Virus genome (UHGV): UHGV-0324630
Reading direction: 5' to 3' (one strand)
DNA: 37,666 bases
Origin: a virus
Shown: one piece after another, positions 1 through 36,702 of the stretch
Numbering within the stretch: position 1 is the first letter of the stretch
How the letters are laid out: each line of letters starts with the position of its first letter
The notes under the pieces: model-generated
The model's input: the letters and a program-made list of their open reading frames with translations, nothing else
The model's database searches: none
What the model was told of the DNA's origin: nothing
Position numbers and translations under genes: made by a program

Positions 1-44
1 TCACGACACTGCTTATTGCTTTGATTTTATTCTTATCTTTCCCA

Positions 45-99
45 TGGTACCCGGAGCGGGACTTGAACCCGCACAGCGCGAACGCCGAGGGATTTTAAA
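45..99 (-). tRNA. Partial tRNA-Leu (UAA-type) 3' fragment, about 55 nt; probable prophage att core, not an intact tRNA gene
   Basis: Minus-strand reading gives ...TTTAAAATCCCTCGGCGTTCGCGCTGTGCGGGTTCAAGTCCCGCTCCGGGTACCA: long class-II variable arm, T-arm GGTTCAAGTCC, acceptor 3' strand and CCA. Matches my memory of E. coli leuZ from the anticodon loop to the CCA end. The 5' half (acceptor 5' strand, D-arm) is absent; sequence diverges at position 100. Confidence 0.7.
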
Positions 100-205: not shown

Positions 206-1207
206 TTACCCTCTATTGTCAAAAGGGTTCAATTCAACAGCAGCCTCTAAATGACCTGGAGCAAAATGCGCATAACGCATAGTCATTTTTATATCGCTAT
301 GCCCCAGTATTTTTTGCAACACAAGAATATTTCCGCCCCGCATCATAAAATGACTGGCAAACGTGTGACGTAGCACATGAGTTAATTGCCCATCAGGAAG
401 CTCGATCTTCGCTCTCTTAATTGCAGCGTCAAAAGCCTCATAACATGGTGAAAATAGCGCTCCTCGTTTTTTAGGAAGCATAGCTTGCAATTGAGGTGAA
501 ATCGGTACAGTGCGGTTCTTCTTTCCTTTAGTTTTAACAAATGTGATTCGACCGGGCAGTACTTGAGATTGCTTTAATCCTTCTGCTTCACTCCACCGAG
601 CACCAGTCGCAAGCCCAATACGGACAACAACCCCCAAATCTTTATTCCGTGACTCATCACACGCAATCAGAAGGCGTTCAATCTCATCTACATACAGAAA
701 CGCCAGTTCCTTTTCTTCCTCACGAAACTTGCGAATACCAGTCAGGGGGTTTTCACCAGACCACTCCCCAAGGCGCTTCAGTTCGGCAAAAACAGCATGT
801 AGATATGACTGCTCGCGATTAACGGTTGCTTCACTAAGTTTTTTCTTCCCCTTGGGATTCCATTCTCCTGATAGCCTTCTTTCCCGATAAGTAGCAAACA
901 TATTTTTGTCAAACTGAGAAGCAAATGGATCTCCCAGCCTGGAACAAATCGCCTCAAGTTTGACTTTGCGCTCTGCACCAGAGGACAAGGTTTTACCGTA
1001 CATCTCAAACCAACGAGCAATCAACTCAGAAAGACGAGGACCAGAACCATCTTGAAACTCGTCTCCAACTCTACTATTCATTAAACGGCGCTCATAAGAG
1101 AGCGCCTCACTTTTTGTCGCAAACTGTTTACGAATGCGTTTTCCCGATGCCCCGTAGGGATAACATTCGCAAAGCCATTTACCTGATGGAATCTTACGAA
1201 CCGACAT
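206..1207 (-). CDS. int: Tyrosine-type site-specific integrase (P2/P4 phage integrase family)
   Basis: 333-aa ORF; C-terminal catalytic region ...LRHTFASHFMMRGGNILVLQKILGHSDIKMTMRYAHF with the R..H..R..Y pattern typical of phage tyrosine recombinases; lies next to the tRNA-derived att core. Confidence 0.92.
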   Translation of the reverse strand: MSVRKIPSGKWLCECYPYGASGKRIRKQFATKSEALSYERRLMNSRVGDEFQDGSGPRLSELIARWFEMYGKTLSSGAERKVKLEAICSRLGDPFASQFDKNMFATYRERRLSGEWNPKGKKKLSEATVNREQSYLHAVFAELKRLGEWSGENPLTGIRKFREEEKELAFLYVDEIERLLIACDESRNKDLGVVVRIGLATGARWSEAEGLKQSQVLPGRITFVKTKGKKNRTVPISPQLQAMLPKKRGALFSPCYEAFDAAIKRAKIELPDGQLTHVLRHTFASHFMMRGGNILVLQKILGHSDIKMTMRYAHFAPGHLEAAVELNPFDNRG

Positions 1208-1212
1208 TTTAG

Positions 1213-1560
1213 TTACTTATCACATAAATCAAATGCAGCCTTAGTGACATCCCCCAGACTCTTTTTTAACCCTGGGGCGGCATCATTATCTAGCCAAAAT
1301 GGATTATTGTTATCTAACGGTAACGCACCAAATGTTTTACCTTTTATTCGAGCCAAACCTGTAAGTGCATATAACTTATTATCGTCAAAATTCATCACAT
1401 AAGGATTACCATCAAGACACTGTAATTGAACCTCATCAGTATTAAATGGCCATACCCCATTGAAACTCTCACGTTCAATAGTTTTAAAAGGCATTGCGAC
1501 GGCGGAAAAAGAAAACATAGATAAAAAAGTAACTAATAGTTGAACCTTTTTTACTTTCAT
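1213..1560 (-). CDS. Small secreted protein with N-terminal signal peptide, function unknown (cargo gene 5 nt upstream of int)
   Basis: 115-aa ORF; N-terminus MKVKKVQLLVTFLSMFSFSAVAMP is signal-peptide-like; two Cys in the mature part; GAGGT RBS 6 nt upstream; stop is 5 nt from the int start codon. Confidence 0.6.
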   Translation of the reverse strand: MKVKKVQLLVTFLSMFSFSAVAMPFKTIERESFNGVWPFNTDEVQLQCLDGNPYVMNFDDNKLYALTGLARIKGKTFGALPLDNNNPFWLDNDAAPGLKKSLGDVTKAAFDLCDK

Positions 1561-1589
1561 ATCATTACCTCAATTTAGCTCAAGTAAGA

Positions 1590-2240
1590 TTACAAATTAA
1601 AAAACGCCCTAGAAATGACACCGCCTACCAAAACCCCTACGCAGATAAAGAATATTATTTCTTTTGGATAAAGTCGGATTAATTCTGAAGCACGAAGTCG
1701 GACTTCTGGTAAGGTCGAACTCTCTGTGTGGCTTGATGCCGATTGTTGCTCTAACCACGACAATGCAGACTGTAACTGAGAACGAGTAAGATCGTTTAAA
1801 CGTCCTGTACCGAAATTGATATGGCAATACCGCAGAAGTTTTTGTCGAAGTCCACAGTCTTCACTGTTACGTAGTAATAAACTTACAAGAGCCTTACAGG
1901 CATCATGATCTTTACATCGCTCAAGCATTGCATGCAGAAAACTCTCCGCTGTTTTATATTGATTTACTGTCATATCATCAATACCAGCTACACCAATCTC
2001 CGCATGTACTTTTTGCCAAATAATAAACGCTTCAGTATTGCTAGCTTCTGCAATAGCAGCAACCAAGCTATTTAGCTCCTTACGCTGAGCCTTAAGCAAA
2101 GGGCGATCGTCATCATCATTATTCGAAGGGATTGCGATATTGACGGTATGAGAACCATCATATCGCTCTATCTGAATATTCTTTTCGTGAAAATCACGCC
2201 CAGCAACGCGATTGTTTGAACCGTTTGAGTTGACGGCCAT
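1590..2240 (-). CDS. Hypothetical protein with C-terminal transmembrane anchor; N-terminus shares an NNR[IV]AGRD[YF] motif with the upstream HTH protein
   Basis: 216-aa ORF; GGAGGTGA RBS; C-terminal hydrophobic stretch IIFFICVGVLVGGVISRAFF; N-terminal NSNGSNNRVAGRDFHE resembles the C-terminal ISGGNNRIAGRDYNE of the ORF at 2256..2660. Confidence 0.6.
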   Translation of the reverse strand: MAVNSNGSNNRVAGRDFHEKNIQIERYDGSHTVNIAIPSNNDDDDRPLLKAQRKELNSLVAAIAEASNTEAFIIWQKVHAEIGVAGIDDMTVNQYKTAESFLHAMLERCKDHDACKALVSLLLRNSEDCGLRQKLLRYCHINFGTGRLNDLTRSQLQSALSWLEQQSASSHTESSTLPEVRLRASELIRLYPKEIIFFICVGVLVGGVISRAFFNL

Positions 2241-2255
2241 GTCACCTCCCTACTA

Positions 2256-2660
2256 TCACCTACCCTTAGTTTCGTTATAGTCACGACCAGCGATACGGTT
2301 ATTACCACCAGAAATATTTAACTCACGTCCTGATGGCTGAGTTTCCTTTTCACTGATCGCACCTTTTAAAGCCCCAATCACCGCGTTTTTCACATCTAAC
2401 GAAGCTGCTCGAAAGCGAGTAATCAATTCCTGCTCATCATCGTTATAAGTTTCAGGTGAGTGAATTCCCAACACAACATACTGAACATCAAGGCCAAAAC
2501 GAGACAGCGCTGCCAAATACGCAGCATCAGGAAAGCTATCTCCTTTCTCATATCTAAGCTGAGTTAGCTTTTTGACTCCACCAATGTCGCTCATGGCAAC
2601 TTGACTAAGTCCCAATCTTTCCCTTTCCTCACGCAACCGCTGACCAATATCATTTTTCAT
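2256..2660 (-). CDS. XRE-family helix-turn-helix transcriptional regulator; probable lysogeny repressor (P2 C / 186 CI functional analogue)
   Basis: 134-aa ORF; N-terminal IGQRLREERERLGLSQVAMSDIGGVKKLTQLRYEKG is a typical XRE HTH; transcribed divergently from the RHH/Cox-like genes and toward int, as in P2-like immunity regions. Confidence 0.8.
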   Translation of the reverse strand: MKNDIGQRLREERERLGLSQVAMSDIGGVKKLTQLRYEKGDSFPDAAYLAALSRFGLDVQYVVLGIHSPETYNDDEQELITRFRAASLDVKNAVIGALKGAISEKETQPSGRELNISGGNNRIAGRDYNETKGR

Positions 2661-2669
2661 ACAAAAACC

Positions 2670-2698
2670 TTGACAGGTATCTTTTTTGATACCAAAAT
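2670..2698 (+). promoter_or_regulatory. Candidate rightward early promoter (TTGACA, 17-bp spacer, CAAAAT) with embedded operator-like inverted repeat GGTATC-tttttt-GATACC (2676..2693)
   Basis: Perfect -35 hexamer TTGACA at 2670-2675; weak -10 at 2693-2698; perfect 6-bp inverted repeat occupies the spacer; sits in the 75-bp repressor/RHH intergenic region. Confidence 0.35.
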
Positions 2699-2735
2699 GA
2701 TTTCACGAGCTATTAGATGATCACAATATACCACT

Positions 2736-2942
2736 ATGAAACAAGTTCTTCACGATACCAGATCACGCATTCCGCGTAACACCGCCACAGGTCCAAGACT
2801 GGCACTTCGGCTGTCCCTCGAGGAGCGAGCCGTCATTGATGAAATGGCAGCTAAAGAACAACGCTCATCCTCTAACATGGCGCGCATGATCTTCCTTCGC
2901 GGCCTAGAGCTAACCCAGAAAGAACAAAACAAATCTTCCTGA
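2736..2942 (+). CDS. Ribbon-helix-helix (CopG/Arc-like) small DNA-binding protein, first gene of the rightward early operon
   Basis: 68-aa ORF; RLALRLSLEERAVIDEMAAKEQRSSSNMARMIFLRGLE fits a beta-strand/helix/helix RHH pattern. Confidence 0.65.
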   Translation: MKQVLHDTRSRIPRNTATGPRLALRLSLEERAVIDEMAAKEQRSSSNMARMIFLRGLELTQKEQNKSS

Positions 2943-9379: not shown

Positions 9380-10339
9380 ATGAAAATTTGTATCGACGAC
9401 GGCTCCACCAACATCAAGCTGGCATGGACTGAGAACGGCGAACGCCGCAACGCCATCAGCCCGAACAGCTTCAAGTCGGAATGGTCTGCGCCGTTCGGTG
9501 GCACGCAGCCCGCGAACTACATGCTTGATGGCGTGCGCTATGGTTTTGATCCTGTCAGCGATCGCTTTGTCCAGACGACCGACACGCAATACCAATACAG
9601 CGATGTGAATGTCATTGCCATTCATCACGCGCTGGTCAAATCAGGCATCACGCCACAGGAGGTGGATGTGGTTGTCACCCTGCCACTGAGCGAGTATTTC
9701 GACACAAACGCACAGCCGGACATGGCCAACATCAACCGCAAAAAAGCGAACGTTATGCGCCCGGTGGAGTACCAGAACGGCAAAGCATTCACTATCCGTA
9801 ACGTACGGGTTATGCCTGAATCTATTCCGGCTGGCTTTAAAGCACTGGCTGACATGAGTCCGTTTGAATCCCTGCTGATTGTGGATTTAGGCGGAACCAC
9901 GCTGGATGTGGCAAAGGTTCAGGGACAACTGGCAGGTATCAGCCAGGTGTTTTGCGATCCACACGTAGGCGTTTCCCTGATGGCCGATGCAGTACTGTCG
10001 GTGATGGCCACTAACGGTATGCGTACCAGTCACCACATCGCCAATACCATTATCGAACATCGCCATGATGAAGCTTGGCTGCGCCAGCACATCCACAATG
10101 ACGCGCATTACGCCAGCCTGATGGCGGTTATTCGTGAAAAGGAAGAAACACTGAAACAACGCGTGATCCGCGCGCTGGCGGGTTTTTCGGGTTACGGGCG
10201 GGTGATGGTTGTCGGTGGCGGAGCGGAGATTGTGGCACCCGCTATCCGCGAAGCCTGCGGGGTTAATGCGACTTTCATCGCGGACGGGGTGCCACAGTTT
10301 GCTCTGGTTAATGGGCTGTACGCAATGGACAAGGAGTAA
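9380..10339 (+). CDS. parM: ParM/StbA-family actin-like ATPase (type II partition NTPase)
   Basis: 319-aa ORF; N-terminus MKICIDDGSTNIKLAW...ISPNSFKSEW...YQYSDVNVIAIHHAL and later PESIPAGF, IVDLGGTTLD, FSGY..VMVVGGGAE align closely with my memory of plasmid R1 ParM (MLVFIDDGSTNIKLQW...ISPNSFKREW...). Confidence 0.9.
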   Translation: MKICIDDGSTNIKLAWTENGERRNAISPNSFKSEWSAPFGGTQPANYMLDGVRYGFDPVSDRFVQTTDTQYQYSDVNVIAIHHALVKSGITPQEVDVVVTLPLSEYFDTNAQPDMANINRKKANVMRPVEYQNGKAFTIRNVRVMPESIPAGFKALADMSPFESLLIVDLGGTTLDVAKVQGQLAGISQVFCDPHVGVSLMADAVLSVMATNGMRTSHHIANTIIEHRHDEAWLRQHIHNDAHYASLMAVIREKEETLKQRVIRALAGFSGYGRVMVVGGGAEIVAPAIREACGVNATFIADGVPQFALVNGLYAMDKE

Positions 10340-10343
10340 ACCA

Positions 10344-10655
10344 ATGACGACACCAACCAGACGGATAAGTTTCTATCTGAAGCCCGCCGCCGTCAAGAAC
10401 GAAGGCGAAGCATGCGCCTGGCTGGACAGCCTTACACCAGAAGCCCGTAAAAACGGCCAACGCGTGGCTTTTCTGGCCGGGCTGGCGCTTCTGAAAATGA
10501 ATCCGGCAGAGGCTTACCGACTGGCAGCATGGGCTGACGATGAGGCGTTATCAGTGACACAAACCAGGACAGAACGCCCCCTGTCACAGCCAGTACCAAC
10601 CGCACAGATAACCAGTCAGATGGCCGGAAATATCAGGGCGTTATTTCCTGAATAA
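10344..10655 (+). CDS. parR: ParR-like centromere-binding adaptor (RHH family)
   Basis: 103-aa ORF from ATG 10344 (AAGGAG RBS); RISFYLKPAAVKNEGEACAWLDSLTPEARKNGQRVAFLAGLALLKMNP and C-terminal IRALFPE resemble R1 ParR (IAFKLNPDV...DSIPQGERSRLNRAALTAGLALYRQDP, LRSLFPKE) from memory. The longer track ORF from 10209 overlaps parM and is probably not the true start. Confidence 0.8.
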   Translation: MTTPTRRISFYLKPAAVKNEGEACAWLDSLTPEARKNGQRVAFLAGLALLKMNPAEAYRLAAWADDEALSVTQTRTERPLSQPVPTAQITSQMAGNIRALFPE

Positions 10656-23466: not shown

Positions 23467-26124
23467 ATGAGCACGAAATTTAAAACCGTTATCACTACTG
23501 CCGGAGCCGCGAAGCTGGCAGCCGCCACTGTCCCCGGCGGGAAAAAAGTAACTCTGTCTGCAATGGCCGTGGGTGACGGTAATGGCAAATTGCCGGTGCC
23601 GGATGCCGGTCAGACGAAACTGGTGCATGAGGTCTGGCGTCACGCTCTGAATAAAGTCAGCGTGGATAACAAGAATAAAAACTATATCGTGGCTGAACTG
23701 GTTGTACCGCCAGAAGTGGGCGGCTTCTGGATGCGTGAGCTGGGTCTGTATGACGATGCCGGAACACTGATTGCGGTCGCTAACATGGCGGAAAGCTATA
23801 AACCTGAACTCGCTGAAGGCTCCGGGCGCGCGCAGACCTGCCGCATGGTTATTATTGTCAGCAACGTGGCGTCCGTTGAGCTGAGTATTGATGCCAGCAC
23901 AGTGATGGCGACGCAGGATTACGTCGATGACAAAATCGCAGAGCATGAGCAATCCCGCCGCCATCCTGACGCCACGCTGACAGAAAAAGGTTTTACTCAG
24001 TTAAGTAGCGCAACAAACAGCACCAGTGAAGAGCTGGCGGCAACGCCAAAGGCAGTAAAAGCAGCCTATGACAATGCTGAAAAACGTATGCAGAAAGACC
24101 AGAACGGTGACGATATTCCAGATAAGGGCGCTTTTCTGGACAATGTTGGCGTTACCAGCCTGACGTTTATGAAAAACAATGGCGAAATGCCGCTTGATGC
24201 TGACTTGAATACATTTGGTCCCGTTAAGGCTTATCTTGGCATCTGGTCTAAAGCAACATCCACCAACGCAACACTGGAGAAAAATTTCCCGGAAGATAAT
24301 GCTGTCGGTGTGCTTGAGGTTTTTGCAGCTGGCAATTTTGCAGGCACGCAACGTTTTATCACGAGAGACGGCAATGTATACATGCGTAAACTCGCCAATA
24401 AGTGGAATGGCACTGATGGTCCGTGGGGCGTATGGCGTCACACTCAATCAGCTACCCGCCCTTTGAGTACGACTATAGACCTGAATACGCTTGGAGCCGC
24501 TGAGCATCTTGGTTTATGGCGTAACAGTAGCTCGGCTATAGCTTCATATGAACGCAATTATCCAGAGGAAGGCGGCTTTGCTCAGGGGACGCTTGAGATC
24601 CTCGAAGGCGGGAATTATGGAAGAACGCAACGTTATACCACTCGTCGTGGGAATATGTACGTTCGCTGCCTTGCGGCAAGCTGGGATGCATCAAATCCGC
24701 AGTGGGAACCGTGGTTAAGAGTCGGTCATCAGTCAGAGAGCCGTTATTACGAAGGTGATTTGAATGTTCTAACCGACCCCGGTATTTACAGTGTTACAGG
24801 AAAGGCGACAAACGGTCCGATGCTGGACGCTGCTGGGGCGACATTGCTTGGGATACTGGAAGTAATCAGGCGTTTTGATGGTGTATCTGTCTGGCAGCGT
24901 TACACAACCACAGGAAAATCAGAAACCACACAGGGGCGCACTTTTGAGCGCGTCTACGCCGGGAGCACATGGACCGAATGGCGAGAAGTGTATAACTCCT
25001 TTTCGTTGCCCCTGAATATGGGGATCGGTGGCGCAGTGGCAAAACTCACCAGCCTGGACTGGCAGACCTACGATTTTGTGCCGGGCAGTCTGATAACCGT
25101 TCGGCTTGATAACATGACCAATATTCCCGACGGTATGGACTGGGGCGTCATTGATGGCAACCTGATAAACATCGCTGTTGGTCCGAGTGATGATTCCGGT
25201 ACGGGGCGCTCAATGCATGTATGGCGCAGCACTGTAAGTAAAGCGAATTACCGCTTTTTTATGGTTCGCATTTCAGGAAATCCGGGAAGCCGCACGATTA
25301 CGACAAGACGTGTGCCAATTATCGACGAAGCTCAGACATGGGCGGCGAAACAGACATTCAGCGGTGGTCTTTCTGGCGAACTATCCGGCAATGCTGCTAC
25401 AGCAACAAAGCTGAAAACGGCAAGGACAATTAACGGCGTAAAATTTGACGGCTCGGCAAATATTGAAGCGTTTCCGCCAGGTGTTCCGCTGCCGTGGCCA
25501 TCAGATACTGTGCCGTCTGGTTACGCCCTGATGCAGGGACAGACTTTTGATAAATCTGCATACCCGAAACTTGCAGTCGCTTATCCGTCAGGCGTGATCC
25601 CGGATATGCGTGGCTGGACAATCAAGGGCAAACCCGCCAGTGGTCGGGCCGTATTGTCTCTGGAACAGGACGGCATTAAATCGCACACCCACAGTGCCAG
25701 CGCATCCAGTACGGATTTGGGTACGAAAACCACATCGTCGTTTGATTACGGTACTAAATCAACGAATAACACAGGTGCACATACCCACAATGTATCTGGT
25801 ACTGCAAATAGTGCTGGCGCACATACTCATACCGTTCCATTAAGGAGACCAAACAGTGGCGGTATGAATTTCGACTGGCTGGATGGTGCATCAAGTGGCA
25901 CGGTGGTGGGGAATGGAACTGTGCCTTCTTCTGGCGCACATACCCACTCAGTATCAGGTACCGCTACAAGTGCTGGGGCACATGCACACACTGTTGGTAT
26001 TGGCGCTCATACGCACTCTGTTGCGATTGGTTCACATGGACACACCATCACCGTTAACGCTGCTGGTAACGCGGAAAACACCGTTAAAAACATCGCATTT
26101 AATTATATTGTGAGGCTTGCATAA
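23467..26124 (+). CDS. H: Tail fibre protein, P2 gpH-like N-terminus with a divergent C-terminal receptor-binding region carrying His-rich GAHTH repeats
   Basis: 885-aa ORF; conserved N-terminus [40 protein letters not shown]; C-terminal repeats [22 protein letters not shown] / [40 protein letters not shown]. Confidence 0.88.
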
Positions 26125-26741
26125 TGGCATTCAGAATGAGTGAACAATCACGTACTGTAAAAATTTATAACCTGCTGGCCGGAACTAATGAGTTTATTGG
26201 TGAAGGTGACGCATATATTCCACCTCATACAGGGCTGCCAGCCAATTCTACAGATATCGCCCCACCGGAAATTCCTGCTGGCTTTGTGGCAGTTTTTAAC
26301 AGTGAAAATGAATCGTGGAATATTGTTGAAGACCATCGTGGTAAAACGGTCTATGACGTGGCATCGGGGGACGCGTTGTTTATTTCTGAACCCGGACCGC
26401 TACCAGAGAATGTCACCTGGTTGTCGCCAGCAGGGGAGTATCAGAAGTGGGACGGCGTATCCTGGGTGAAGGATGAGGAAGCAGAAAAACTGTTTCGGAT
26501 ACGGGAAGCGGAAGAGAAAAAGGCAAGGTTGATCCAGGAAGCAACAGATAACATCGCAATTCTGCAGGATGCAGTTAATCTTGAAATAGCAACAAACGAG
26601 GAAAATTCACAACTGGATTCCTGGAGAAAATACAGAGTATTAGTGAGTAGAATTGACACCAGTACAGCTCCGGATATCGTATGGCCAGAGCTGATGAATC
26701 AGGGTTATGTGCGGGAGGACGAGCAGATAACTTCAGACTGA
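26124..26741 (+). CDS. G: Tail fibre assembly chaperone (Tfa/gpG-like)
   Basis: 205-aa ORF, ATG overlaps the H stop (TAATG); sits directly after the fibre gene. Confidence 0.8.
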
Positions 26742-27268
26742 AATTTAGTGATGAATGTTGAATCATCTGGAATATCATGCAATACCAATGCATGAGCACC
26801 TATTGTGACATTGTTTCCTATACGCACTTTGCCACCAAGAATGGTGGCATTACAACCAATGGTCACATTATGTCCTATAACAATATCCATATCATTAAAA
26901 TCACCACGCAGCCCAATAGTTACCCCTGGTTTTATTGAACAATTTTCACCGATTGTTACTTTGTGACCGATAACAACACTGTTGAGATAAGAAATATCAA
27001 AGCCTTTCCCTATATTTACAGTTAAAGGGACTGTTACATTATATTTATCAAGAATGAAACGTTCTATTTTCCCCGCAATCTTCCGACAGTATCCGCCTTT
27101 ATCAAAAAGGTATTTGGCTATGCGCCACCAAAATAAATAACGAACTCTTCTATGTTTTATTGCGCGAACAATTGCCTTTCGCCAGGAGAAAGGACGCTCG
27201 CTACCGATTACTTCATAGTGAATACAATCTTTAAGTTCATTAATATTCATATCTCTATTATTCAGCAT
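26705..27268 (-). CDS. Hexapeptide-repeat (left-handed beta-helix) acyl/acetyltransferase; AT-rich cargo gene at the position of the P2 Z/fun locus
   Basis: 187-aa ORF; tandem hexapeptide repeats [21 protein letters not shown]...[34 protein letters not shown] typical of LacA/Maa/WbbJ-type transferases; convergent with and overlapping the tfa 3' end. Confidence 0.8.
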
Positions 27269-27438: not shown

Positions 27439-27933
27439 TCAGAACAGCCCTTTAACTGAACTGGCCGCGCTGTTAAGGGATGATGTCACTTTATCTTTGA
27501 AGCCGGACAGCATATCGCTGAACGATGAGGATTGCAGGCGCTCCCGCAAATCCTCATCACAGCGTTCAAGGGTCAGTGAAAATTCTATCTTTTTCGCCTT
27601 ACCGTAGCGATCAAACTCGGAACGGGTCGTATTCGTTTCGGTCAGGACATACATGCCGTAAATCTGCCCGACGCCATCAATAAGAGGCCAGGGGCGTCCT
27701 GTATACGCCTGCGTGGTCAGCAGCGACAGCGACACTTCGCCACCTGTAATTTCAGGATAAAGCACACCAGAAAGAACGATGCGATCATCACCTGCACCGA
27801 TATACTGCCAGCTTGCTGAACGGTTAACGCGTTCATTTTTCACATGCCGCCAGCTTTTGTTTTGCTGTAACTGCTGATGCGGCAGCGTGCGCAGCTCAAA
27901 AACAAACATGCCGTAGATCATCATCATGGCCAT
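27439..27933 (-). CDS. U: Tail protein U, P2 gpU-like
   Basis: MAMMMIYGMFVFELRTLPHQQLQQNKSWRH...VLYPEITGG...WPLIDGVGQIYGMYVLTE resembles P2 gpU from memory. Confidence 0.85.
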   Translation of the reverse strand: MAMMMIYGMFVFELRTLPHQQLQQNKSWRHVKNERVNRSASWQYIGAGDDRIVLSGVLYPEITGGEVSLSLLTTQAYTGRPWPLIDGVGQIYGMYVLTETNTTRSEFDRYGKAKKIEFSLTLERCDEDLRERLQSSSFSDMLSGFKDKVTSSLNSAASSVKGLF

Positions 27934-27939
27934 GACTCC

Positions 27940-30783
27940 TCAATCTTTATCGTAAAAACTGCCACGCCCGGCACGGGCGCGCCGTTCCATTTCTGCCCTG
28001 ACCATTTCACCGACCAGTTTCGCCAGTTCGCGGGGATTCTGCGTAACAACGTTATGCAGATGAACATGAATTTCACCACCAAATCCGGAGGCAACAGGCT
28101 CCCGGTTACGGGAAGTTACAGGAACTGATGCCACTGGAGATCGTATGGCCTCCGCCACCGGGCGGGAGCTGGCCGCAACAACAGGGACCAGCGCCGGAGG
28201 CAGCGGAGCCGGGACCACGGGTGTGATATTAATTGCGGGGGCAGGCTTACTGACCTGCGCAATCTTCCGCTCCTGCCACTCTCCACGAACAGCAAGTGCG
28301 CGGGGCAGGTTCTTAAAGACAATATCGCCGGGGCCAATGCGTTTTTTCGTCTCATCAACCAGCTTACCTGTGTTATCAGCAATTTTGCTGAGTCTGCGTA
28401 GCGTCCCGGTATTGCTGTCTGTGAGCGGTTTGTTGTCTTTGGGTTTATTACCTCCGGTGCCATTGCCATTTTCCACAGGCTTCGGCGGATTGATTTTCGC
28501 CAGGTCACCCTGAAGCAAGGCAACCTTGTCCTGAAGAATGGCCGCACGCTGTGCGTCTTCGATTTTCTTGCGCGCTCTTTCCGCTTCATCCGGAAGGACG
28601 CCAAGTTTTTCAAGTATCCACGCCAGCGTATCCAGTAGCATTTTTGCAGGTGTCAGAACAAGCTGTAACGCACCGCCAAGAACGTTACCGAATATCTCGC
28701 CAGCACTGGTACATTTATCCAGCGTTTCCTTGCTGGACTCCATCGGTGACAGCAGCGATTTAAACCAGTTAAACACCTGGCTGATCCCGCTTCCGATTGT
28801 GTCAAAAACAGGACCAAACCGTTCAAAGGTTTCGCGCAACGGGGTCAGCCTTTCCATAATCCCGCTGAACACCCCGGCAAAAAATGCCCTGATGGGATCC
28901 CAGTATTTCCAGATAAGAACGGCAGCTCCGGCAAGCGCAGCCACGATAAGACCAACCGGACTGAACAGCGCCCCGATAGCGCCTCCCAGTAAAGAAACGG
29001 AACCCGTCACCATTCCCCACAGCGCAGGCAACACCCTGACGACATTCATTGACCGGGTAAGAATGTCAAAACCAAGACGCAGGGTGGCCAGCTTCCCGTA
29101 AAGCACCCCAATAACCAGCGACAACGAGCCAATCGTTGCAGTCATTGCCAGCAACGCACCGCCTGCTATCAGTAGCTGGCGCGTCAGTACCGGATGGGCC
29201 TGCGCCAGCGAGGTGATTTTTTCAAGCACCCGCGTGAGCCACTGCGTGACAGAACGCAGCGGACCGTCAACCAGATCACTGATGCGAATACGAAGACCTT
29301 CCCATGCGCTGTCGAGATTTTTCAGGTCCCCATCAAGATTATCGGCCATTACTTTTGCGACGCGATCGGCCTCTCCCCTTGCCCCCTGCAATTCTCTGGT
29401 CAGTTTTTGCAGCTCTCCTGAACCAGCCGCCGCAACAAGCGTCTGCAAACCAACGAACGCCTCTTCTCCGGCGATGTCCTTGAAGAAGGAAACCTGGTCC
29501 ACCTGTCCGTATTTTTGTGTCGCCTTATAGAGATCAAGCAGCACATCCTCCATCGGGCGCATTTTGCCTCTGGCGTCAGCAACTGACACCCCCAGCTCTT
29601 TCAGTGCATCAGCCGCAGCTTTTGGCGGTGATGCAAGGCGGGACAGACTTGCGCGCATGGCCGTACCAGCATCGCTTCCGCGAAGACCATTATTGGCAAG
29701 CATCCCGGCCATGGCTGCCGCTTCTTCAAGACTGATACCAAGTTTTGCGGCAACCGGACCGGTATACTTCATGGTTTCGCCCAGCGCGCGTAAATCAGTA
29801 TTGGTCCGGGTGAATGCTGCTGTCAGCGTATCGCCAACACGGTCCATTTGATCGGCTGTCAGGTTGAACTGTGTGAGGATATTGGAGCCTATATCAGCCG
29901 TCTCGCCGAGTTCGACGCCACCTGCCAGCGCCATATTAAGAACACCGGGCAATGCGGCCTGAATGGCCTGCGGAGTAAAACCAGCCATTGCCAGAAAGCT
30001 CTGCCCACTGGCGGCATCACTCGCAGTAAACTGTGTTTCAGAGCCAAGTTTTAACGCCTGCTCACGCAGCGCCTTAAACTGCGGGCTGTTTTTGTCGATT
30101 CGCGTCAGTGCCTGAACACGGGACATCTCTTTGCCGAACCCGATCGCAGGCTGCAAAAAACGCCCGGCAGCATAGCCGCCCGCCGTTGCCGCACCAATTG
30201 CCAGCGCACCACCTGTTTTCAGTTTTCCCGCTGTTTCCTGCGCGCGCGAATACCGCTCACGCGCCCGTGTTACACGCGCAAGCGCCTGCCGTTCGCGTTC
30301 AAGCTGGTTGTTGTACTGTTCGGTGCGTCTGATGGCCTGCTGGATGGTGTTATCGCTGCCTGTCAGGGAAATGCCGTGGCGTTTCAGCTCTCCGCCAAGC
30401 TCCCGCATTTTCTGAATTTCCCGTGTGCGCGATTCATTCAGGCGTTCAAGCCGGGTGCTTAACTGCTGCATCAGCTTTTGTTGTTTTTCGCTGAGCACTG
30501 TACCCGTGCGTTGTAACTGATTAAGGGCGTTAAGCTGGCGTCGTGCTTTCAATATGCCAGCATCCGCTTTACTGACAGCGTCACGGGCGCGCTCAAATGA
30601 ACGCGCCTGACGCTCGAGATTTTTGATCGCCCCCTGCGTTCGCTGGATGGAGTCACCAAACTGCCCCATCAGGCGGCGGGCGTTTTCGGCAGGCCGGGTC
30701 AGCCTGTCAACGGCGCTGAAAGCGACCCGGATGTCAAGAGTCTTCATTGTCTGCATTCCCGCTGCGAAGTGCCGCCCGCTCAC
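27940..30783 (-). CDS. T: Tail tape measure protein, P2 gpT-like
   Basis: 947-aa ORF; long coiled-coil N-terminal half, Gly/Ala-rich hydrophobic central segments, position between E/E' and U. Confidence 0.88.
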   Translation of the reverse strand: MSGRHFAAGMQTMKTLDIRVAFSAVDRLTRPAENARRLMGQFGDSIQRTQGAIKNLERQARSFERARDAVSKADAGILKARRQLNALNQLQRTGTVLSEKQQKLMQQLSTRLERLNESRTREIQKMRELGGELKRHGISLTGSDNTIQQAIRRTEQYNNQLERERQALARVTRARERYSRAQETAGKLKTGGALAIGAATAGGYAAGRFLQPAIGFGKEMSRVQALTRIDKNSPQFKALREQALKLGSETQFTASDAASGQSFLAMAGFTPQAIQAALPGVLNMALAGGVELGETADIGSNILTQFNLTADQMDRVGDTLTAAFTRTNTDLRALGETMKYTGPVAAKLGISLEEAAAMAGMLANNGLRGSDAGTAMRASLSRLASPPKAAADALKELGVSVADARGKMRPMEDVLLDLYKATQKYGQVDQVSFFKDIAGEEAFVGLQTLVAAAGSGELQKLTRELQGARGEADRVAKVMADNLDGDLKNLDSAWEGLRIRISDLVDGPLRSVTQWLTRVLEKITSLAQAHPVLTRQLLIAGGALLAMTATIGSLSLVIGVLYGKLATLRLGFDILTRSMNVVRVLPALWGMVTGSVSLLGGAIGALFSPVGLIVAALAGAAVLIWKYWDPIRAFFAGVFSGIMERLTPLRETFERFGPVFDTIGSGISQVFNWFKSLLSPMESSKETLDKCTSAGEIFGNVLGGALQLVLTPAKMLLDTLAWILEKLGVLPDEAERARKKIEDAQRAAILQDKVALLQGDLAKINPPKPVENGNGTGGNKPKDNKPLTDSNTGTLRRLSKIADNTGKLVDETKKRIGPGDIVFKNLPRALAVRGEWQERKIAQVSKPAPAINITPVVPAPLPPALVPVVAASSRPVAEAIRSPVASVPVTSRNREPVASGFGGEIHVHLHNVVTQNPRELAKLVGEMVRAEMERRARAGRGSFYDKD

Positions 30784-31263
30784 GCCAGCTAACCACTTCG
30801 CCGGGCGTCATCATGAAGATTTCGGCGGGCGACCAGTTAAAAATGGCGGCAATATCCGCCACCAGATCTTCGATGTGCTCAAAGCACACCAGGGTGATTA
30901 CGCTGCCGTCTCCTGCACGCTCTTCGCGCCAGAGTCTGGCTCGCTCATAAAATTTACAGCCACAGCGCACAACTGAATAAAATCGCGTGACGACATTTTT
31001 TTAATCATCACTTCATCCAGTCGTGGCGAGGTCACGCGAGGCAACAGCGTGAACATGGTATCCGCTTTCAGATTCAGCACATCAGACAGCGACAGACCAC
31101 GCAGGGATCCAGCCTGCTCAATAGCCCCGGTGATCTCCACATACGTGATTTTTTCGCCACCACGCTCAATTGGTCGGGTCAGTTTTACGCCACGCTCGCT
31201 GGTTTCTTTCACAGTGTCAGCAACGACCGTATTTTCGGTATCGATGTTTTTCGTCACTTTCAT
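30734..31263 (-). CDS. Tail assembly chaperone gpE+E' (predicted -1 programmed frameshift product)
   Basis: The -1 frame is open from inside the A7 run to 30734 and overlaps the tape measure start, the classic G/GT, E/E' arrangement. Confidence 0.6.
30898..31263 (-). CDS. E: Tail assembly chaperone gpE
   Basis: 121-aa ORF downstream of the tube gene; its 3' end holds an A7 slippery run and overlaps a -1-frame ORF (E'). Confidence 0.8.
   Translation of the reverse strand: MKVTKNIDTENTVVADTVKETSERGVKLTRPIERGGEKITYVEITGAIEQAGSLRGLSLSDVLNLKADTMFTLLPRVTSPRLDEVMIKKMSSRDFIQLCAVAVNFMSEPDSGAKSVQETAA
30996..31002 (-). promoter_or_regulatory. Candidate -1 ribosomal frameshift (slippery) site: A7 on the coding strand (AUU AAA AAA AUG)
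   Basis: Seen directly as T7 on the plus strand; the -1 frame carries a TAA just upstream and is open only from within the A-run. Confidence 0.5.
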
Positions 31264-31317
31264 CAGGAAACTCCTTTCAGTCAGAGGCGACGCACTGCGC
31301 CGCCTGCATATTACTTA

Positions 31318-31830
31318 TCAGCCAAGCCCGAGCGCGGAACGGATGCGATCGGGCACAATGTCCTTGCCGTCCTTCCGGTAAATGAAGTTCAGCAGGTCAA
31401 TCTCCCACAACGGGCGATCGTTAACACTCAGCTTGTAGTAGGTGTTTTTAATGGCGTAAGTGTGTGATGTGGCTTCGCCCTGTTTGGCTTCCCCCATATC
31501 AATTTCCGTCACACGTCCGCGCATTTCGACTTCATACAGGTCGCTTTCATCATCGGTGTAGTATTCACCCGCAAAACGCAGTAGCGTGCCGTCAATCGTG
31601 CCGCCATACTTCAGGAACAGCTCACGAACTGCGCCCCCCATGACAAAGCTCGCATCAAGCGCGGAGTCGTCCAGACCGAGATCAATACTTACCGCCCCCA
31701 TCATGCCACCACCCCGGTAGCTGTCGGTTTTGCGCGTCAGTTTAGGCAGGGTGACGGACGTCACCTTACCCACTTCGTTTTCACCATCCACAAACAGCGT
31801 AAAAAAGCGAAGATGTTTTGGTACAGCCAT
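31318..31830 (-). CDS. FII: Tail tube protein, P2 gpFII-like
   Basis: 170-aa ORF immediately downstream of the sheath gene on the minus strand. Confidence 0.88.
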   Translation of the reverse strand: MAVPKHLRFFTLFVDGENEVGKVTSVTLPKLTRKTDSYRGGGMMGAVSIDLGLDDSALDASFVMGGAVRELFLKYGGTIDGTLLRFAGEYYTDDESDLYEVEMRGRVTEIDMGEAKQGEATSHTYAIKNTYYKLSVNDRPLWEIDLLNFIYRKDGKDIVPDRIRSALGLG

Positions 31831-33014
31831 CAGGCACCTCCCAGCACCGCAAATGCGGGACCAAAGAATTCATCAGTAAACGACTGGTAAAGCTCCATGT
31901 CTTCCAGCGGAGGAACGGGCGTATATTTGTAGCGAATACGCACACGCCCCTGACGTAAATTCGTGGTGCTGTTATCCACGATGTCATACCAGCACTCCGC
32001 GCCAATCAGTTTCCCGGCAGTAACCAGTGAATCCAGTTTTGCCCTGATGGCACTGATAACATCCTTCACGTTCGCAGGCGTCAGTGGACTGTCGATGGTT
32101 TCAAACTGCGCTTCCGCAATTGAATCAGCCAGCACCTGTGCAGTTCGGGTATACACCTCAAAGATGTAGGCGTTCGTTTCCGGTGTGCGGTTGCCCCAGA
32201 AGCGGAACCCGTTGCGACGAATAATGGTCGTGATTTCTTTGTTGTTGAGGCTGTTGGCATCGCTGTCTTCGGCCTGCAACGACCAGAACACATGCCTGGA
32301 CATCCCCAGCACATTTTTAACCGGAACATTGGACAGTGATTTGTGCCATCCCTGCTCATGGTCAATGTACGCACGAAGGCCGCACGCATAGGCAGGCGCG
32401 GGGAACGTTTCGTTTTTGCCACTTTTCGGGTTGTAGGCGATGAAGTCCGGCCATAAGAGCATCACCTCACGTTCATTGAATTTCTGGCGGTAGGTAATCG
32501 CCTCAGCCATCGTGTTACAGCCGTGACATGAGGCATACACAAACGCGCGCAGTTTACCCGCAATCACGCACAGGGATTTTGTTACCGCCTCCGTATCCAG
32601 CTCCGGCGCGGCCAGAATACGCGGACGGTATCCGATGCTTTCATCCTGCTCTGCAACAAGCAGCGCATACATCCCCGTATAGCTGCCGTCAGATTCAGAA
32701 CCACCGATAACCAGTTGATCCTGCGTTTTTCCGTCTTCTTCTTTGTGTTCAGCCACGCGAACGACGATCACCTTTGTGCTCACCTGGTCTGCGATGGCCT
32801 TAAGCGCACGATAAAGCGTCCCCGTTGTTCCGCATTTTCCCAGCACGTCATTGACGCGGGTCAGCAGTGTGGGCTTGTTCAGCGGGAACAGCTCCGCGTC
32901 CGCATCATCCGCCATTGCCACGATACCGATAACACTGGAATCAACATCATTAATCGCTGTTACCAGGTCGGTACTTTCCGTAACACGGGCACCATGAAAA
33001 CGAGTTTCACTCAT
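31830..33014 (-). CDS. FI: Contractile tail sheath protein, P2 gpFI-like
   Basis: 394-aa ORF; size and position match P2 FI (about 396 aa). Confidence 0.9.
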   Translation of the reverse strand: MSETRFHGARVTESTDLVTAINDVDSSVIGIVAMADDADAELFPLNKPTLLTRVNDVLGKCGTTGTLYRALKAIADQVSTKVIVVRVAEHKEEDGKTQDQLVIGGSESDGSYTGMYALLVAEQDESIGYRPRILAAPELDTEAVTKSLCVIAGKLRAFVYASCHGCNTMAEAITYRQKFNEREVMLLWPDFIAYNPKSGKNETFPAPAYACGLRAYIDHEQGWHKSLSNVPVKNVLGMSRHVFWSLQAEDSDANSLNNKEITTIIRRNGFRFWGNRTPETNAYIFEVYTRTAQVLADSIAEAQFETIDSPLTPANVKDVISAIRAKLDSLVTAGKLIGAECWYDIVDNSTTNLRQGRVRIRYKYTPVPPLEDMELYQSFTDEFFGPAFAVLGGA

Positions 33015-33171
33015 AGCTTCAGCCCCTTGTATCCGTTAAATGATTCGGCAACAATCATCACCCACCACGCGCGTAATCTCACCCCTGCGCCGTTCTCCCG
33101 ACCCGGCGACAACAAAAAGCAGTAACCCCCTCCGCACGCACATGCGACCATGCCGCACAGGGAGGGAACAG

Positions 33172-36561: not shown

Positions 36562-36702
36562 ATGTCGCAAAAATCGCTTACGGCCATCACGTTCTGCGTG
36601 ACGGTAATCCTCATCATCTGGATGCTACACGGTTCGCTGTGTGAAATACGGATGAGCTTCTGGGGAGCGGAGTTTGCGGCGTTCTTACAGTGTAAGCAGT
36701 AA
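36562..36702 (+). CDS. Hok/Gef-family type I toxin (small membrane toxin)
   Basis: 46-aa ORF with AAAGGAG RBS: MSQKSLTAITFCVTVILIIWMLHGSLCEIRMSFWGAEFAAFLQCKQ; N-terminal TM helix then the SLCEIR motif characteristic of Hok/SrnB/PndA; not in the ORF track (below 60 aa). Confidence 0.8.
   Translation: MSQKSLTAITFCVTVILIIWMLHGSLCEIRMSFWGAEFAAFLQCKQ

What the first reader, a model, noticed from the sequence alone, without database searches (positions are those of the whole stretch)
1213..1560. Secreted small protein gene translationally coupled 5 nt upstream of int
A signal-peptide-bearing 115-aa protein with two cysteines is encoded in the repressor-int operon with only 5 nt between its stop and the int start. 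This is lysogen-expressed cargo with an exported product, possibly a lysogenic conversion or envelope-modifying factor. It may belong to a known periplasmic DUF family (YebY-like is my unverified guess).
Basis: inference. Interest (0 to 1): 0.35.

Follow-up and report, generated by a model that had tools for sequence, protein, structure and literature searches.

The report
Prophage-encoded periplasmic YebY-like protein
The gene is real and encodes a small exported protein of the known but poorly understood YebY/DUF2511 family, carried in the lysogeny operon of a P2-like E. coli prophage (CP-933T/Sp13 type) and already detected in EHEC proteomes; what it does for the lysogen is still unknown.

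Summary
Observation confirmed. ORF 1213..1560 (-) encodes 115 aa with a Sec signal peptide (cleavage after A22) and two cysteines. Its stop lies 5 nt before the int ATG.

- Pfam DUF2511 scores above the gathering cut-off.
- The PDB sequence search hits YebY (7N0J), with W37, C48 and C113 aligned.
- An AlphaFold model matches only YebY (TM 0.83) and MlbQ.

The gene is phage cargo. It occurs in 507 of 5,426 complete E. coli genomes, always in a P2-like (Xuanwuvirus) prophage at leuZ/yecA. It equals Z2967 (CP-933T) and ECs2618 (Sp13).

Diverged DUF2511 genes sit between repressor and int in other P2-like prophages, including PSP3/186-like and those of Morganella, Serratia, Klebsiella and Erwinia. 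dN/dS is about 0.1.

Published proteomics detect Z2967 in uninduced O157:H7 lysate and in culture supernatant, with SignalP calling it SPI. int has no Shine-Dalgarno, so translational coupling is plausible.

Function is untested. My best guess is periplasmic superinfection exclusion, analogous to but not homologous with K139 Glo (about 0.4). The main rival is modulation of host YebZ copper import.

The family, the annotation and the genomic context were already on record, so interest is modest.

The parts
1213..1560 (-). DUF2511/YebY-family gene (115 aa precursor including the TAA stop); identical to WP_000865208.1, EDL933 Z2967 and Sakai ECs2618
   Evidence: ORF; Pfam DUF2511; phrog_2950 E 9e-40; RefSeq annotation; dN/dS about 0.1
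1495..1560 (-). Sec (SPase I) signal peptide, residues 1-22, predicted cleavage AVA|MP
   Evidence: Sequence features; A22 invariant; published SignalP SPI for Z2967
1216..1494 (-). Mature 93-aa domain (10.4 kDa, pI 4.7) with W37, C48 and C113 as in YebY; invariant clade-specific block Y54-VMNFDDN-61
   Evidence: Alignments; AlphaFold pLDDT above 95 over the domain; Foldseek YebY TM 0.83
1567..1571 (-). Shine-Dalgarno GAGGT of the DUF2511 gene
   Evidence: Duplex energy with the anti-SD -6.9 kcal/mol
1208..1212 (-). 5-nt spacer (CTAAA) between the DUF2511 stop and the int ATG; int has no Shine-Dalgarno, so this is the likely site of termination-reinitiation coupling
   Evidence: Sequence; int upstream duplex energy -1.0 kcal/mol; relatives with 4-5-nt gaps also lack an SD, while the relative with a 27-nt gap has one
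206..1207 (-). Tyrosine integrase (333 aa), last gene of the lysogenic operon
   Evidence: Pfam Int_N plus Phage_integrase; phrog_1
1590..2240 (-). orf216: Flk_N-like protein with a C-terminal transmembrane anchor (phrog_5825), co-resident cargo of the same operon
   Evidence: NCBIfam Flk E 8.6e-16; PHROG; Pfam Flk_N on homologues; Sakai annotation 'membrane protein'
2256..2660 (-). HTH (cI/C-type) repressor, first gene of the lysogenic operon; Sakai ECs2620 by position; Z2969 inferred from its 134-aa length
   Evidence: HTH families; Sakai annotation 'phage repressor protein'; Z2969 (134 aa) detected in the proteome
2661..2735 (.). Divergent control region between the repressor and the Arc-like/Cox-like early genes
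   Evidence: Plus-strand TTGACA-17-CAAAAT promoter-like site at 2670-2698. The lysogenic promoter on the minus strand was not resolved by the scan; it is inferred from the layout.
1..99 (-). att repeat: 55 nt of the 3' end of tRNA-Leu (leuZ; window 45-99) plus 44 nt downstream. The second copy lies next to the intact tRNA, just beyond the right end of the window.
   Evidence: 100% match over 99 bp; no intact tRNA in the window; host context leuZ ... yecA

Best explanation
Shown:
- The gene encodes a Sec-exported, soluble, about 10.4-kDa periplasmic protein with the YebY/DUF2511 fold: a four-stranded antiparallel sheet packed against helices. The two cysteines occupy the positions that form the C48-C113 disulfide in YebY.
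- It is a conserved resident of the lysogenic operon (repressor to int) of a P2-like (Xuanwuvirus, CP-933T/Sp13-type) prophage.
- It is made in uninduced lysogens.

Inferred:
- It is transcribed with the repressor from the lysogenic promoter.
- Ribosomes finishing it re-initiate 5 nt downstream on the SD-less int.

Inferred mechanism (probability about 0.4). It acts in the periplasm as a small binding protein that protects the lysogen by superinfection exclusion, interfering with the DNA-injection stage of incoming P2-like phages, for example by binding the tape-measure or tail-tip proteins. This would be a functional analogue, not a homologue, of the periplasmic Glo protein at the same position in Vibrio phage K139, and of the Ltp lipoproteins in Gram-positive phage lysogeny modules. 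Confidence in identity, fold, localisation and expression is about 0.95. The number given for this entry is for the function.
For: Identity and fold:
- Pfam DUF2511 scores 28.4 bits (GA 21).
- YebY 7N0J is hit at E 0.0027 by single sequence and 3e-36 by profile; MlbQ scores 3e-5.
- The AlphaFold model has pLDDT 88.5. Foldseek finds only YebY (TM 0.83) and MlbQ.

Expression and export:
- The identical protein is present in strain 86-24.
- Z2967 (MW 12858.4, pI 6.17, equal to the computed 12858.7 and 6.17) was detected in 10 of 11 replicates of the low-MW SEC fraction, abundance rank 73.
- It was also found in EHEC supernatant, with SignalP calling it SPI.

Operon residency across P2-like phages:
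- Xuanwu-type relatives at 63-69% identity keep cI-Flk_N-DUF2511-int.
- Morganella (40%), Serratia (43%) and PSP3/186-like (26-28%) prophages keep cI-DUF2511-int.
- In the phage collection, tblastn with this protein and with PSP3 gp28 hit only about a dozen records. The two whose taxonomy was checked (PSP3, 520873) are Peduoviridae; most of the rest are 28-31 kb.

Purifying selection: dN/dS about 0.1.

Positional analogy to exclusion factors:
- K139 has cI-orf2-glo-int, with Glo annotated as periplasmic and involved in phage exclusion.
- Glo is described as a soluble periplasmic Sie protein, and ltp as a prophage-expressed injection blocker in the lysogeny module.

Precedent for binding: both characterised family members act extracytoplasmically. 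MlbQ is proposed to bind the lantibiotic NAI-107 directly. YebY reduces import by the membrane importer YebZ.
Against: - There is no experimental exclusion phenotype for any DUF2511 protein.
- There is no sequence or profile similarity to Glo and no PADLOC hit.
- The argument for exclusion is positional and by analogy only.
- The protein diverges more slowly (63-69%) than the repressor (33-53%) in relatives. It is therefore not tied to immunity specificity, and it shows no obvious diversifying pattern.
- The only functional data in the family concern copper uptake and lantibiotic binding.
- P2 and 186 themselves were not hit by tblastn with either DUF2511 query, so the protein is not essential to P2-like lysogeny.
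Confidence: 0.4

Rival explanations
1. YebY mimic. The phage protein acts on the host copper-import machinery (the CopD-type importer YebZ and/or the CopC-type YobA), as chromosomal YebY does. It would change copper entry in the lysogen, and with it copper-dependent MarR/mar signalling or copper toxicity.
For: It has the same family and fold, with the same W37/C48/C113 framework. YebY co-expression diminishes YebZ-dependent copper uptake. YebZ-YebY fusions exist, implying physical association. The host families carrying the phage-type gene are among the families listed as encoding YebY homologues.
Against: Identity to E. coli YebY is only 29-32%, and the protein sits in a separate deep clade. 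The residues shared with YebY look structural, and the invariant clade-specific hairpin YVMNFDDN differs from YebY's YVINPSTL. The genetic context is never copC/copD. Every lysogen already has its own yebY.
Confidence: 0.18
2. MlbQ-like immunity. The protein sequesters a peptide antibiotic (bacteriocin, microcin or host antimicrobial peptide) in the periplasm and so raises the lysogen's tolerance.
For: MlbQ is the only other structural neighbour. It is proposed to confer self-resistance by directly binding the lantibiotic NAI-107. The mature protein is acidic (pI 4.7), which suits binding of cationic peptides.
Against: There is no lipoprotein anchor and no associated ABC transporter or bacteriocin genes in the window. 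Lantibiotics rarely cross the Gram-negative outer membrane (general knowledge). No ligand is known.
Confidence: 0.08
3. Secreted effector. The protein is a genuine type II secretion substrate released by EHEC onto epithelial cells and acts outside the bacterium as a virulence or colonisation factor.
For: Z2967 was found in EHEC supernatant in the presence of epithelial cells, was absent from the T2SS mutant supernatant, and has a BastionHub T2SS score of 0.994.
Against: This is screening-level presence/absence data. The same list contains classic periplasmic proteins (MalM, UshA, RNase I), which suggests leakage. The gene family sits in prophages of Klebsiella, Citrobacter, Erwinia, Rosenbergiella, Morganella and Serratia, and in environmental E. 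coli. That range argues against an EHEC-specific effector.
Confidence: 0.07
4. Leader ORF. The reading frame matters mainly as an upstream ORF that sets int translation by coupling, and the protein product itself is dispensable.
For: The gap to int is 5 nt and int has no Shine-Dalgarno. Relatives with 4-5-nt gaps also lack one.
Against: Purifying selection acts across the whole protein, with a conserved signal-peptide architecture. The protein is abundant. In Erwinia-type phages the gene is separated from int by two other genes. In PSP3-type and Morganella phages the gaps are 16-24 nt.
Confidence: 0.03
5. Conserved host gene rather than phage cargo.
For: E. coli has a chromosomal family member (yebY).
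Against: The gene is present in only 507 of 5,426 complete genomes. It lies inside a prophage bounded by a 99-bp att repeat at leuZ. It is lost together with Sp13 in strain Xuzhou21. It is 29-32% identical to yebY. Its GC content is 35-37%.
Confidence: 0.01

Closest known systems
E. coli YebY (PDB 7N0J; Pfam PF10709/DUF2511), third gene of the yobA-yebZ-yebY copper-uptake operon
   Same: Same Pfam family and same fold (Foldseek TM 0.83, rmsd 2.1 A). The length is nearly the same, with W37, C48 and C113 at the same residue numbers. Both have an SPase I signal peptide and a soluble, monomer-sized periplasmic product.
   Different: Identity is 29-32% and the clade is separate. The YebY 'EVG' insertion is absent. 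Distinct invariant motifs are present (YVMNFDDN, FW at 88-89). It is encoded in a phage lysogeny operon rather than after copC/copD. There is no evidence of any link to copper.
PSP3 gp28 (orf28) and the DUF2511 genes of 186-like, Morganella and Serratia P2-like prophages
   Same: Same family, same size, a signal peptide, and the same slot between the immunity repressor and int of a P2-like phage. This context was already noted by Hadley et al. 2021 (PMC8689200).
   Different: Identity is only 26-43%. Those phages lack the Flk_N-like membrane protein that accompanies the gene in the Xuanwuvirus-type module. None has a known function.
Glo of Vibrio phage K139
   Same: P2-like phage with identical operon logic (cI - orf2 - glo - int). 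Glo is a small soluble periplasmic protein with an N-terminal signal peptide, a cysteine near each end of the mature chain, and a stop abutting the int start. It is annotated as involved in phage exclusion.
   Different: There is no detectable homology (BLASTP E 7.7; hhalign probability 9%, signal peptides only). The Glo fold was not examined here.
MlbQ (PDB 2MVO/6QFP), lantibiotic self-resistance lipoprotein of Microbispora
   Same: DUF2511 fold with the disulfide at the equivalent position; an extracytoplasmic binding protein.
   Different: MlbQ is a lipoprotein with a long linker, is encoded with ABC transporters in a lantibiotic cluster, and comes from an actinobacterial host. Identity is 22-24%.
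Ltp/Sie2009-type superinfection-exclusion proteins of Gram-positive temperate phages
   Same: Ltp is an exported protein encoded within the lysogeny module, expressed in the prophage state, that blocks DNA injection. Placement between int and the repressor, and the Sie2009 example, are from my own knowledge.
   Different: They are unrelated in sequence and fold, are membrane-anchored, and have a demonstrated phenotype, which this protein lacks.

Membership tests
DUF2511 / YebY family (Pfam PF10709) | Match to the family HMM above Pfam's gathering score | tested here: met
   28.4 bits against a cut-off of 21, E 2.3e-6, profile positions 2-87 of 87. The precomputed Pfam hit is on nearly all close homologues.
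DUF2511 / YebY family (Pfam PF10709) | N-terminal signal peptide, extracytoplasmic location | tested here: met
   n/h/c regions and AVA|M cleavage site; invariant A22; published SignalP SPI and detection in supernatant for the identical Z2967. Fractionation was not done here.
DUF2511 / YebY family (Pfam PF10709) | Two strictly conserved cysteines that form the stabilising disulfide (C48-C113 in YebY) | tested here: met
   C48 and C113 are the only cysteines and align with the YebY and MlbQ cysteines. The bond itself cannot be tested with these tools.
DUF2511 / YebY family (Pfam PF10709) | Conserved tryptophan at the start of the folded domain (W37 in YebY, W71 in MlbQ) | tested here: met
   W37 is invariant in the 49-sequence alignment.
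DUF2511 / YebY family (Pfam PF10709) | Fold: four-stranded antiparallel sheet plus helices, as in 7N0J and 2MVO | tested here: met
   AlphaFold pLDDT 88.5, above 95 over the mature domain. Foldseek: 7N0J E 5.6e-6, TM 0.83; MlbQ E 4e-4; next hit E 1.
AZY-operon YebY orthologues (copper-import modulators) | Encoded directly after copD/yebZ and two genes after copC/yobA | tested here: not met
   The neighbours are the repressor, a Flk_N-like protein and int. A true AZY-type homologue (P0046) shows CopC-CopD-YebY.
AZY-operon YebY orthologues (copper-import modulators) | Orthologue-level similarity to YebY | tested here: not met
   29-32% identity; separate deep clade in the NJ tree.
AZY-operon YebY orthologues (copper-import modulators) | Diminishes YebZ-dependent copper uptake | not testable with these tools
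   Needs ICP-MS or reporter assays. The phenotype is described for YebY in PMC11923076.
MlbQ-type lantibiotic immunity lipoproteins | Lipoprotein signal peptide (lipobox cysteine) and linker | tested here: not met
   There is no cysteine before residue 48; the signal is SPase I type.
MlbQ-type lantibiotic immunity lipoproteins | Located in a lantibiotic or ABC-transporter immunity cluster | tested here: not met
   Prophage lysogeny operon; no such genes in the window.
K139 Glo-type periplasmic superinfection exclusion | Small exported protein encoded between the repressor and int of a P2-like phage | tested here: met
   K139 layout cI-orf2-glo-int against cI-orf216-DUF2511-int here.
K139 Glo-type periplasmic superinfection exclusion | Homology to Glo | tested here: not met
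   BLASTP E 7.7; hhalign probability 9%, signal peptides only.
K139 Glo-type periplasmic superinfection exclusion | Exclusion of superinfecting phage | not testable with these tools
   Needs plating and injection assays.
Catalogued anti-phage defence systems (PADLOC-DB) | Match to any defence-protein model | tested here: not met
   No hit at E up to 1 for this protein or for orf216.

The most novel reading that the evidence does not exclude
Phage-borne DUF2511 proteins could be an unrecognised, widespread class of soluble periplasmic superinfection-exclusion factors of P2-like phages in Enterobacterales. Alternatively, they could be prophage-encoded YebY mimics that retune host copper import and mar-dependent antibiotic tolerance. 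Either reading would also give the first clear biological handle on what the YebY/MlbQ fold binds.
Probability: 0.3. Interest if true: 0.6.

Novelty: new member of a known kind. Interest (0 to 1): 0.33.

Why it matters
The protein is made in a large share of clinically important E. coli. It is in about 9% of complete genomes, including O157:H7, O121 and O111 STEC. It is abundant enough to rank 73rd in a low-molecular-weight lysate fraction.

Relatives occupy the same lysogeny-operon slot in many P2-like prophages of Salmonella, Klebsiella, Citrobacter, Serratia, Morganella and Erwinia. Conservation across such diverged phages, with dN/dS about 0.1, implies a real fitness role for the phage or the lysogen.

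If the role is exclusion, it would be a new defence fold. If it is copper or mar modulation, it would be a new type of lysogenic conversion affecting antibiotic tolerance. Either way the experiments are cheap.

As it stands, the family assignment, the annotation and the genomic context were already on record, so the finding mainly consolidates what is known.

Tried and rejected
- Homology to K139 Glo was rejected (BLASTP E 7.7; hhalign probability 9%). K139 orf2 against orf216 also shows no similarity.
- Defence-system models (PADLOC) give no hit. NCBIfam gives no hit for the 115-aa protein.
- A Foldseek search of viral predicted structures (BFVD) gives nothing at E <= 0.001. The viral library did not help, even though PSP3 gp28 is a homologue.
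- The species-representative genome scan returned only one locus, in Rosenbergiella. The prophage is rarely present in representative genomes, so context statistics had to come from IMG/VR loci and exact-protein look-ups.
- Independent moron-style expression was not supported. There is no minus-strand terminator between the repressor and int. The only minus-strand promoter-like sites are weak (9 of 12 matches), and the region holds fewer such sites than shuffled sequence does (3 against 6.2). An own promoter is neither shown nor excluded.
- A required functional pairing with the Flk_N-like orf216 was rejected. The Morganella, Serratia and PSP3-type modules have DUF2511 without it. Gene order is swapped in Erwinia-type modules.
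- The opposite orientation of the tail sheath-to-U block looked like a prophage rearrangement. It is the same in phage 520873, so it is a lineage feature.
- The Cys-Cys distance in the model could not be measured because model coordinates are not exposed.

Full report
**1. The observation**

The minus strand carries an ATG ORF at 1213..1560 encoding 115 aa.
- Its TAA stop (1213-1215) is followed by CTAAA (1208-1212) and then the int ATG (1207-1205). The 5-nt gap is exact.
- The protein has only two cysteines, C48 and C113.
- The N-terminus (MKVKK / VQLLVTFLSMFSFS / AVA|MP) has a positively charged n-region, a hydrophobic core (Kyte-Doolittle 11-residue maximum 2.15) and an A-x-A site. No cysteine is present that could make a lipobox.
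- In homologues the signal peptide varies freely, but alanine at -1 (A22) is invariant.
- A GAGGT Shine-Dalgarno lies at 1567-1571 (-6.9 kcal/mol with the anti-SD).

The gene is the third of four tightly spaced minus-strand genes: HTH repressor 2256..2660, orf216 1590..2240, this gene, and int 206..1207. The gaps are 15, 29 and 5 nt. No minus-strand terminator-like site lies between them.

**2. It is a real, selected, expressed gene**

Selection:
- Among 17 close alleles from IMG/VR loci, 24 codons are polymorphic and 17 of these are purely synonymous.
- The most divergent close pair gives dN/dS 0.096. Against a Rosenbergiella orthologue dN/dS is 0.08.

Identity with a known EHEC protein:
- The window is 100% identical to a prophage in E. 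coli strain 631, where the protein is WP_000865208.1, 'DUF2511 domain-containing protein'.
- The same accession is annotated in O157:H7 strain 86-24.
- The gene is 100% identical in Sakai, where it is ECs_2618 inside 'prophage Sp13, P2-like phage'.
- In EDL933 it corresponds to Z2967 of CP-933T. The published mass and pI of Z2967 (12858.4 Da, 6.17) equal the values computed for the window protein (12858.7, 6.17).

Published detection:
- Pieper et al. 2011 (PMC3210124, Table S7) found Z2967 in strain 86-24 lysate only in the low-molecular-weight size-exclusion fraction. It was present in 10 of 11 replicates, at abundance rank 73 in that fraction.
- Z2969, which at 134 aa has the same length as the repressor here, was detected too.
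- A 2026 secretome study (PMC12962677) lists Z2967 as SignalP 'SPI'. It was present in EHEC supernatant with epithelial cells and absent from the T2SS mutant.

**3. Family and fold**

Sequence evidence:
- Pfam DUF2511 (PF10709) is matched over the whole profile at 28.4 bits (cut-off 21).
- PHROG 2950 (unknown function) is matched at E 9e-40.
- A plain sequence search of the PDB hits E. coli YebY (7N0J) at E 0.0027. W37, C48 and C113 align with the YebY residues of the same numbers.
- A 49-sequence profile raises this to 3e-36 and also finds MlbQ at 3e-5.

Structural evidence:
- An AlphaFold2 model built on that alignment has mean pLDDT 88.5, above 95 across the mature domain.
- It shows strands at 25-29, 43-49, 52-57 and 62-65, and helices at 68-77 and 103-113.
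- Foldseek against the PDB returns only YebY chains (E 5.6e-6, TM 0.83, rmsd 2.1 A) and MlbQ (E 4e-4). The next hit has E about 1.

Published biochemistry:
- Hadley et al. 2021 (PMC8689200) showed that YebY is periplasmic and monomeric. They concluded from gel mobility, thermal stability and C48/C113 mutants, and then from the crystal structure, that it has a C48-C113 disulfide.
- They also showed that it closely resembles MlbQ.

All family-defining features that can be tested here are met.

**4. It is phage cargo, and a recurrent one**

Distribution in E. coli:
- The gene is in 507 of 5,426 complete E. coli genomes, once per genome as a rule.
- The prophage lies between leuZ and yecA.
- It is bounded by a 99-bp direct repeat made of the last 55 nt of tRNA-Leu plus 44 nt. 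Window 1-99 is one copy.
- Strain Xuzhou21 lost ECs2617-ECs2626 together with Sp13.
- GC content is 35-37% over the gene, about 45% in int and above 50% in late genes.
- The closest isolated phage is Escherichia phage 520873 (Peduoviridae, Xuanwuvirus). The gene is frameshifted and unannotated in that record.

Conservation of the module:
- Diverged relatives from Rosenbergiella and three IMG/VR contigs keep the whole module Cox/Arc | repressor - Flk_N-like - DUF2511 - int.
- In these, DUF2511 is 63-69% identical, int 74-78%, orf216 57-66% and the repressor 33-53%.
- Klebsiella prophages have the same order.
- Erwinia and one metagenomic contig have repressor - DUF2511 - Flk_N - orf - int.
- More distant DUF2511 clades lie directly between the repressor and int, without the Flk_N gene. 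These are Morganella at 40%, Serratia at 43%, and the PSP3/SEN1/186-like type at 26-28%, which is very common in Salmonella and E. coli.
- A homologue of the host type sits after CopC-CopD, as expected.

Phylogeny and prior notice:
- A neighbour-joining tree of mature domains gives three deep groups: the host YebY type, the PSP3 type, and the Xuanwu/Serratia/Morganella type.
[quoted passage not shown] The context is therefore not new, but nobody has studied it.

**5. Coupling to int**

- int has no Shine-Dalgarno (-1.0 kcal/mol), whereas orf216 (-13.1) and the DUF2511 gene (-6.9) do.
- Relatives with 4-5-nt gaps also lack one (0.2, -1.0, -2.8).
- The single relative with a 27-nt spacer has GAGGG (-6.1).

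This internal comparison supports termination-reinitiation coupling in the window. It is an inference, and it is not a family-wide feature, because gaps are 16-24 nt in other clades and the gene is not adjacent to int in Erwinia-type phages.

**6. What it does**

Nothing is known experimentally.

The established facts are:
- It is an abundant, soluble, exported protein.
- It has a disulfide-type framework.
- It is expressed in the prophage state.
- It is conserved in the lysogeny operon of many P2-like phages.
- It is under purifying selection.
- It is independent of the accompanying Flk_N-like membrane protein.

Both characterised family members act outside the cytoplasm. MlbQ is proposed to bind a lantibiotic directly, and YebY reduces import by the YebZ importer.

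The strongest analogy is positional. Vibrio phage K139, also P2-like, has cI - orf2 - glo - int. Glo is a soluble periplasmic protein involved in phage exclusion. In Gram-positive phages, Ltp is an exported, prophage-expressed injection blocker encoded in the lysogeny module.

I therefore rank the candidate roles as follows:
- Periplasmic superinfection exclusion: about 0.4.
- YebY mimic acting on host copper import: about 0.18.
- Peptide-antibiotic sequestration: about 0.08.
- True T2SS effector: about 0.07.
- Mere leader ORF for int: about 0.03.
- The remainder is for an unanticipated periplasmic role.

Glo is not a homologue, and PADLOC has no model for this protein.

**7. Verdict**

The element is a member of a known family in a known, if unexplored, genomic context. 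It is already annotated in RefSeq and already seen in two proteomic data sets. It is worth a simple exclusion and copper experiment, but it is not a surprise to a specialist.

Noticed in passing
window 2256-2320 (-) and 2190-2240 (-): The C-terminal tail of the repressor (...ISGGNNRIAGRDYNETKGR) and the N-terminus of the next protein, orf216 (MAVNSNGSNNRVAGRDFHEKN...), share a motif, G-x-(N)-NR-x-AG-R/Q-D-F/Y-x-E-N. Both copies are kept in diverged relatives (L004, L049, L050) whose repressors are only 37-53% identical. This may be a shared recognition or oligomerisation tag, or a trace of a split gene. It is unexplained.
   Followed up: partly
window 1590-2240 (-): orf216 is a Flk_N-like protein (NCBIfam Flk E 8.6e-16 over residues 37-166; Pfam Flk_N on homologues) with a C-terminal membrane anchor. 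It is carried in the lysogeny operon, and it swaps order with the DUF2511 gene in Erwinia-type relatives. Its function in a phage is unknown.
   Followed up: partly
window 2736-2942 (+) versus 2750-2887 (-): The plus-strand 68-aa ORF matches PHROG 3431 'Arc-like repressor' (E 1e-28). RefSeq E. coli records instead annotate a 45-aa hypothetical protein on the opposite strand at the same place. The phage 520873 record annotates the Arc-like gene. This is probably a wrong-strand call in the genome annotations.
   Followed up: partly
window 1-99; L062 1835-1933: A 99-bp direct repeat flanks the prophage. It consists of the last 55 nt of tRNA-Leu (leuZ) plus 44 nt downstream. The window begins with one copy and ends exactly where the other begins, so ARAGORN finds no tRNA in the window.
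   Followed up: yes
window 34681-35820 (+), 36562-36702 (+), 9380-10655 (+): The prophage carries its own 379-aa 'YecA family protein' while being integrated next to host yecA. It also carries a Hok/Gef toxin gene and ParM plus a partition protein, which are plasmid-like maintenance genes in a P2-like prophage.
   Followed up: no
L002 (NC_049344.1, phage 520873), whole lysogeny region: In the reference phage record, int is split into two CDSs, and orf216 and the DUF2511 gene are frameshifted and unannotated. Frameshifts across several neighbouring genes look like sequencing errors. Because of this, the phage database under-reports the gene.
   Followed up: partly
window 27439-33014 (-) versus 23467-26741 (+) and 33040-34281 (+): The tail sheath, tube, tape-measure and U genes are on the opposite strand to the tail-fibre genes and gene D, unlike P2. 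Phage 520873 has the same arrangement, so it is a lineage feature and not a rearrangement of this prophage.
   Followed up: partly
window 26705-27268 (-): A 'transferase' gene lies just after the tail-fibre assembly gene. At about this position phage 520873 instead has a second tail-fibre cassette and a DNA invertase. The site looks like a variable host-range or cargo position.
   Followed up: no
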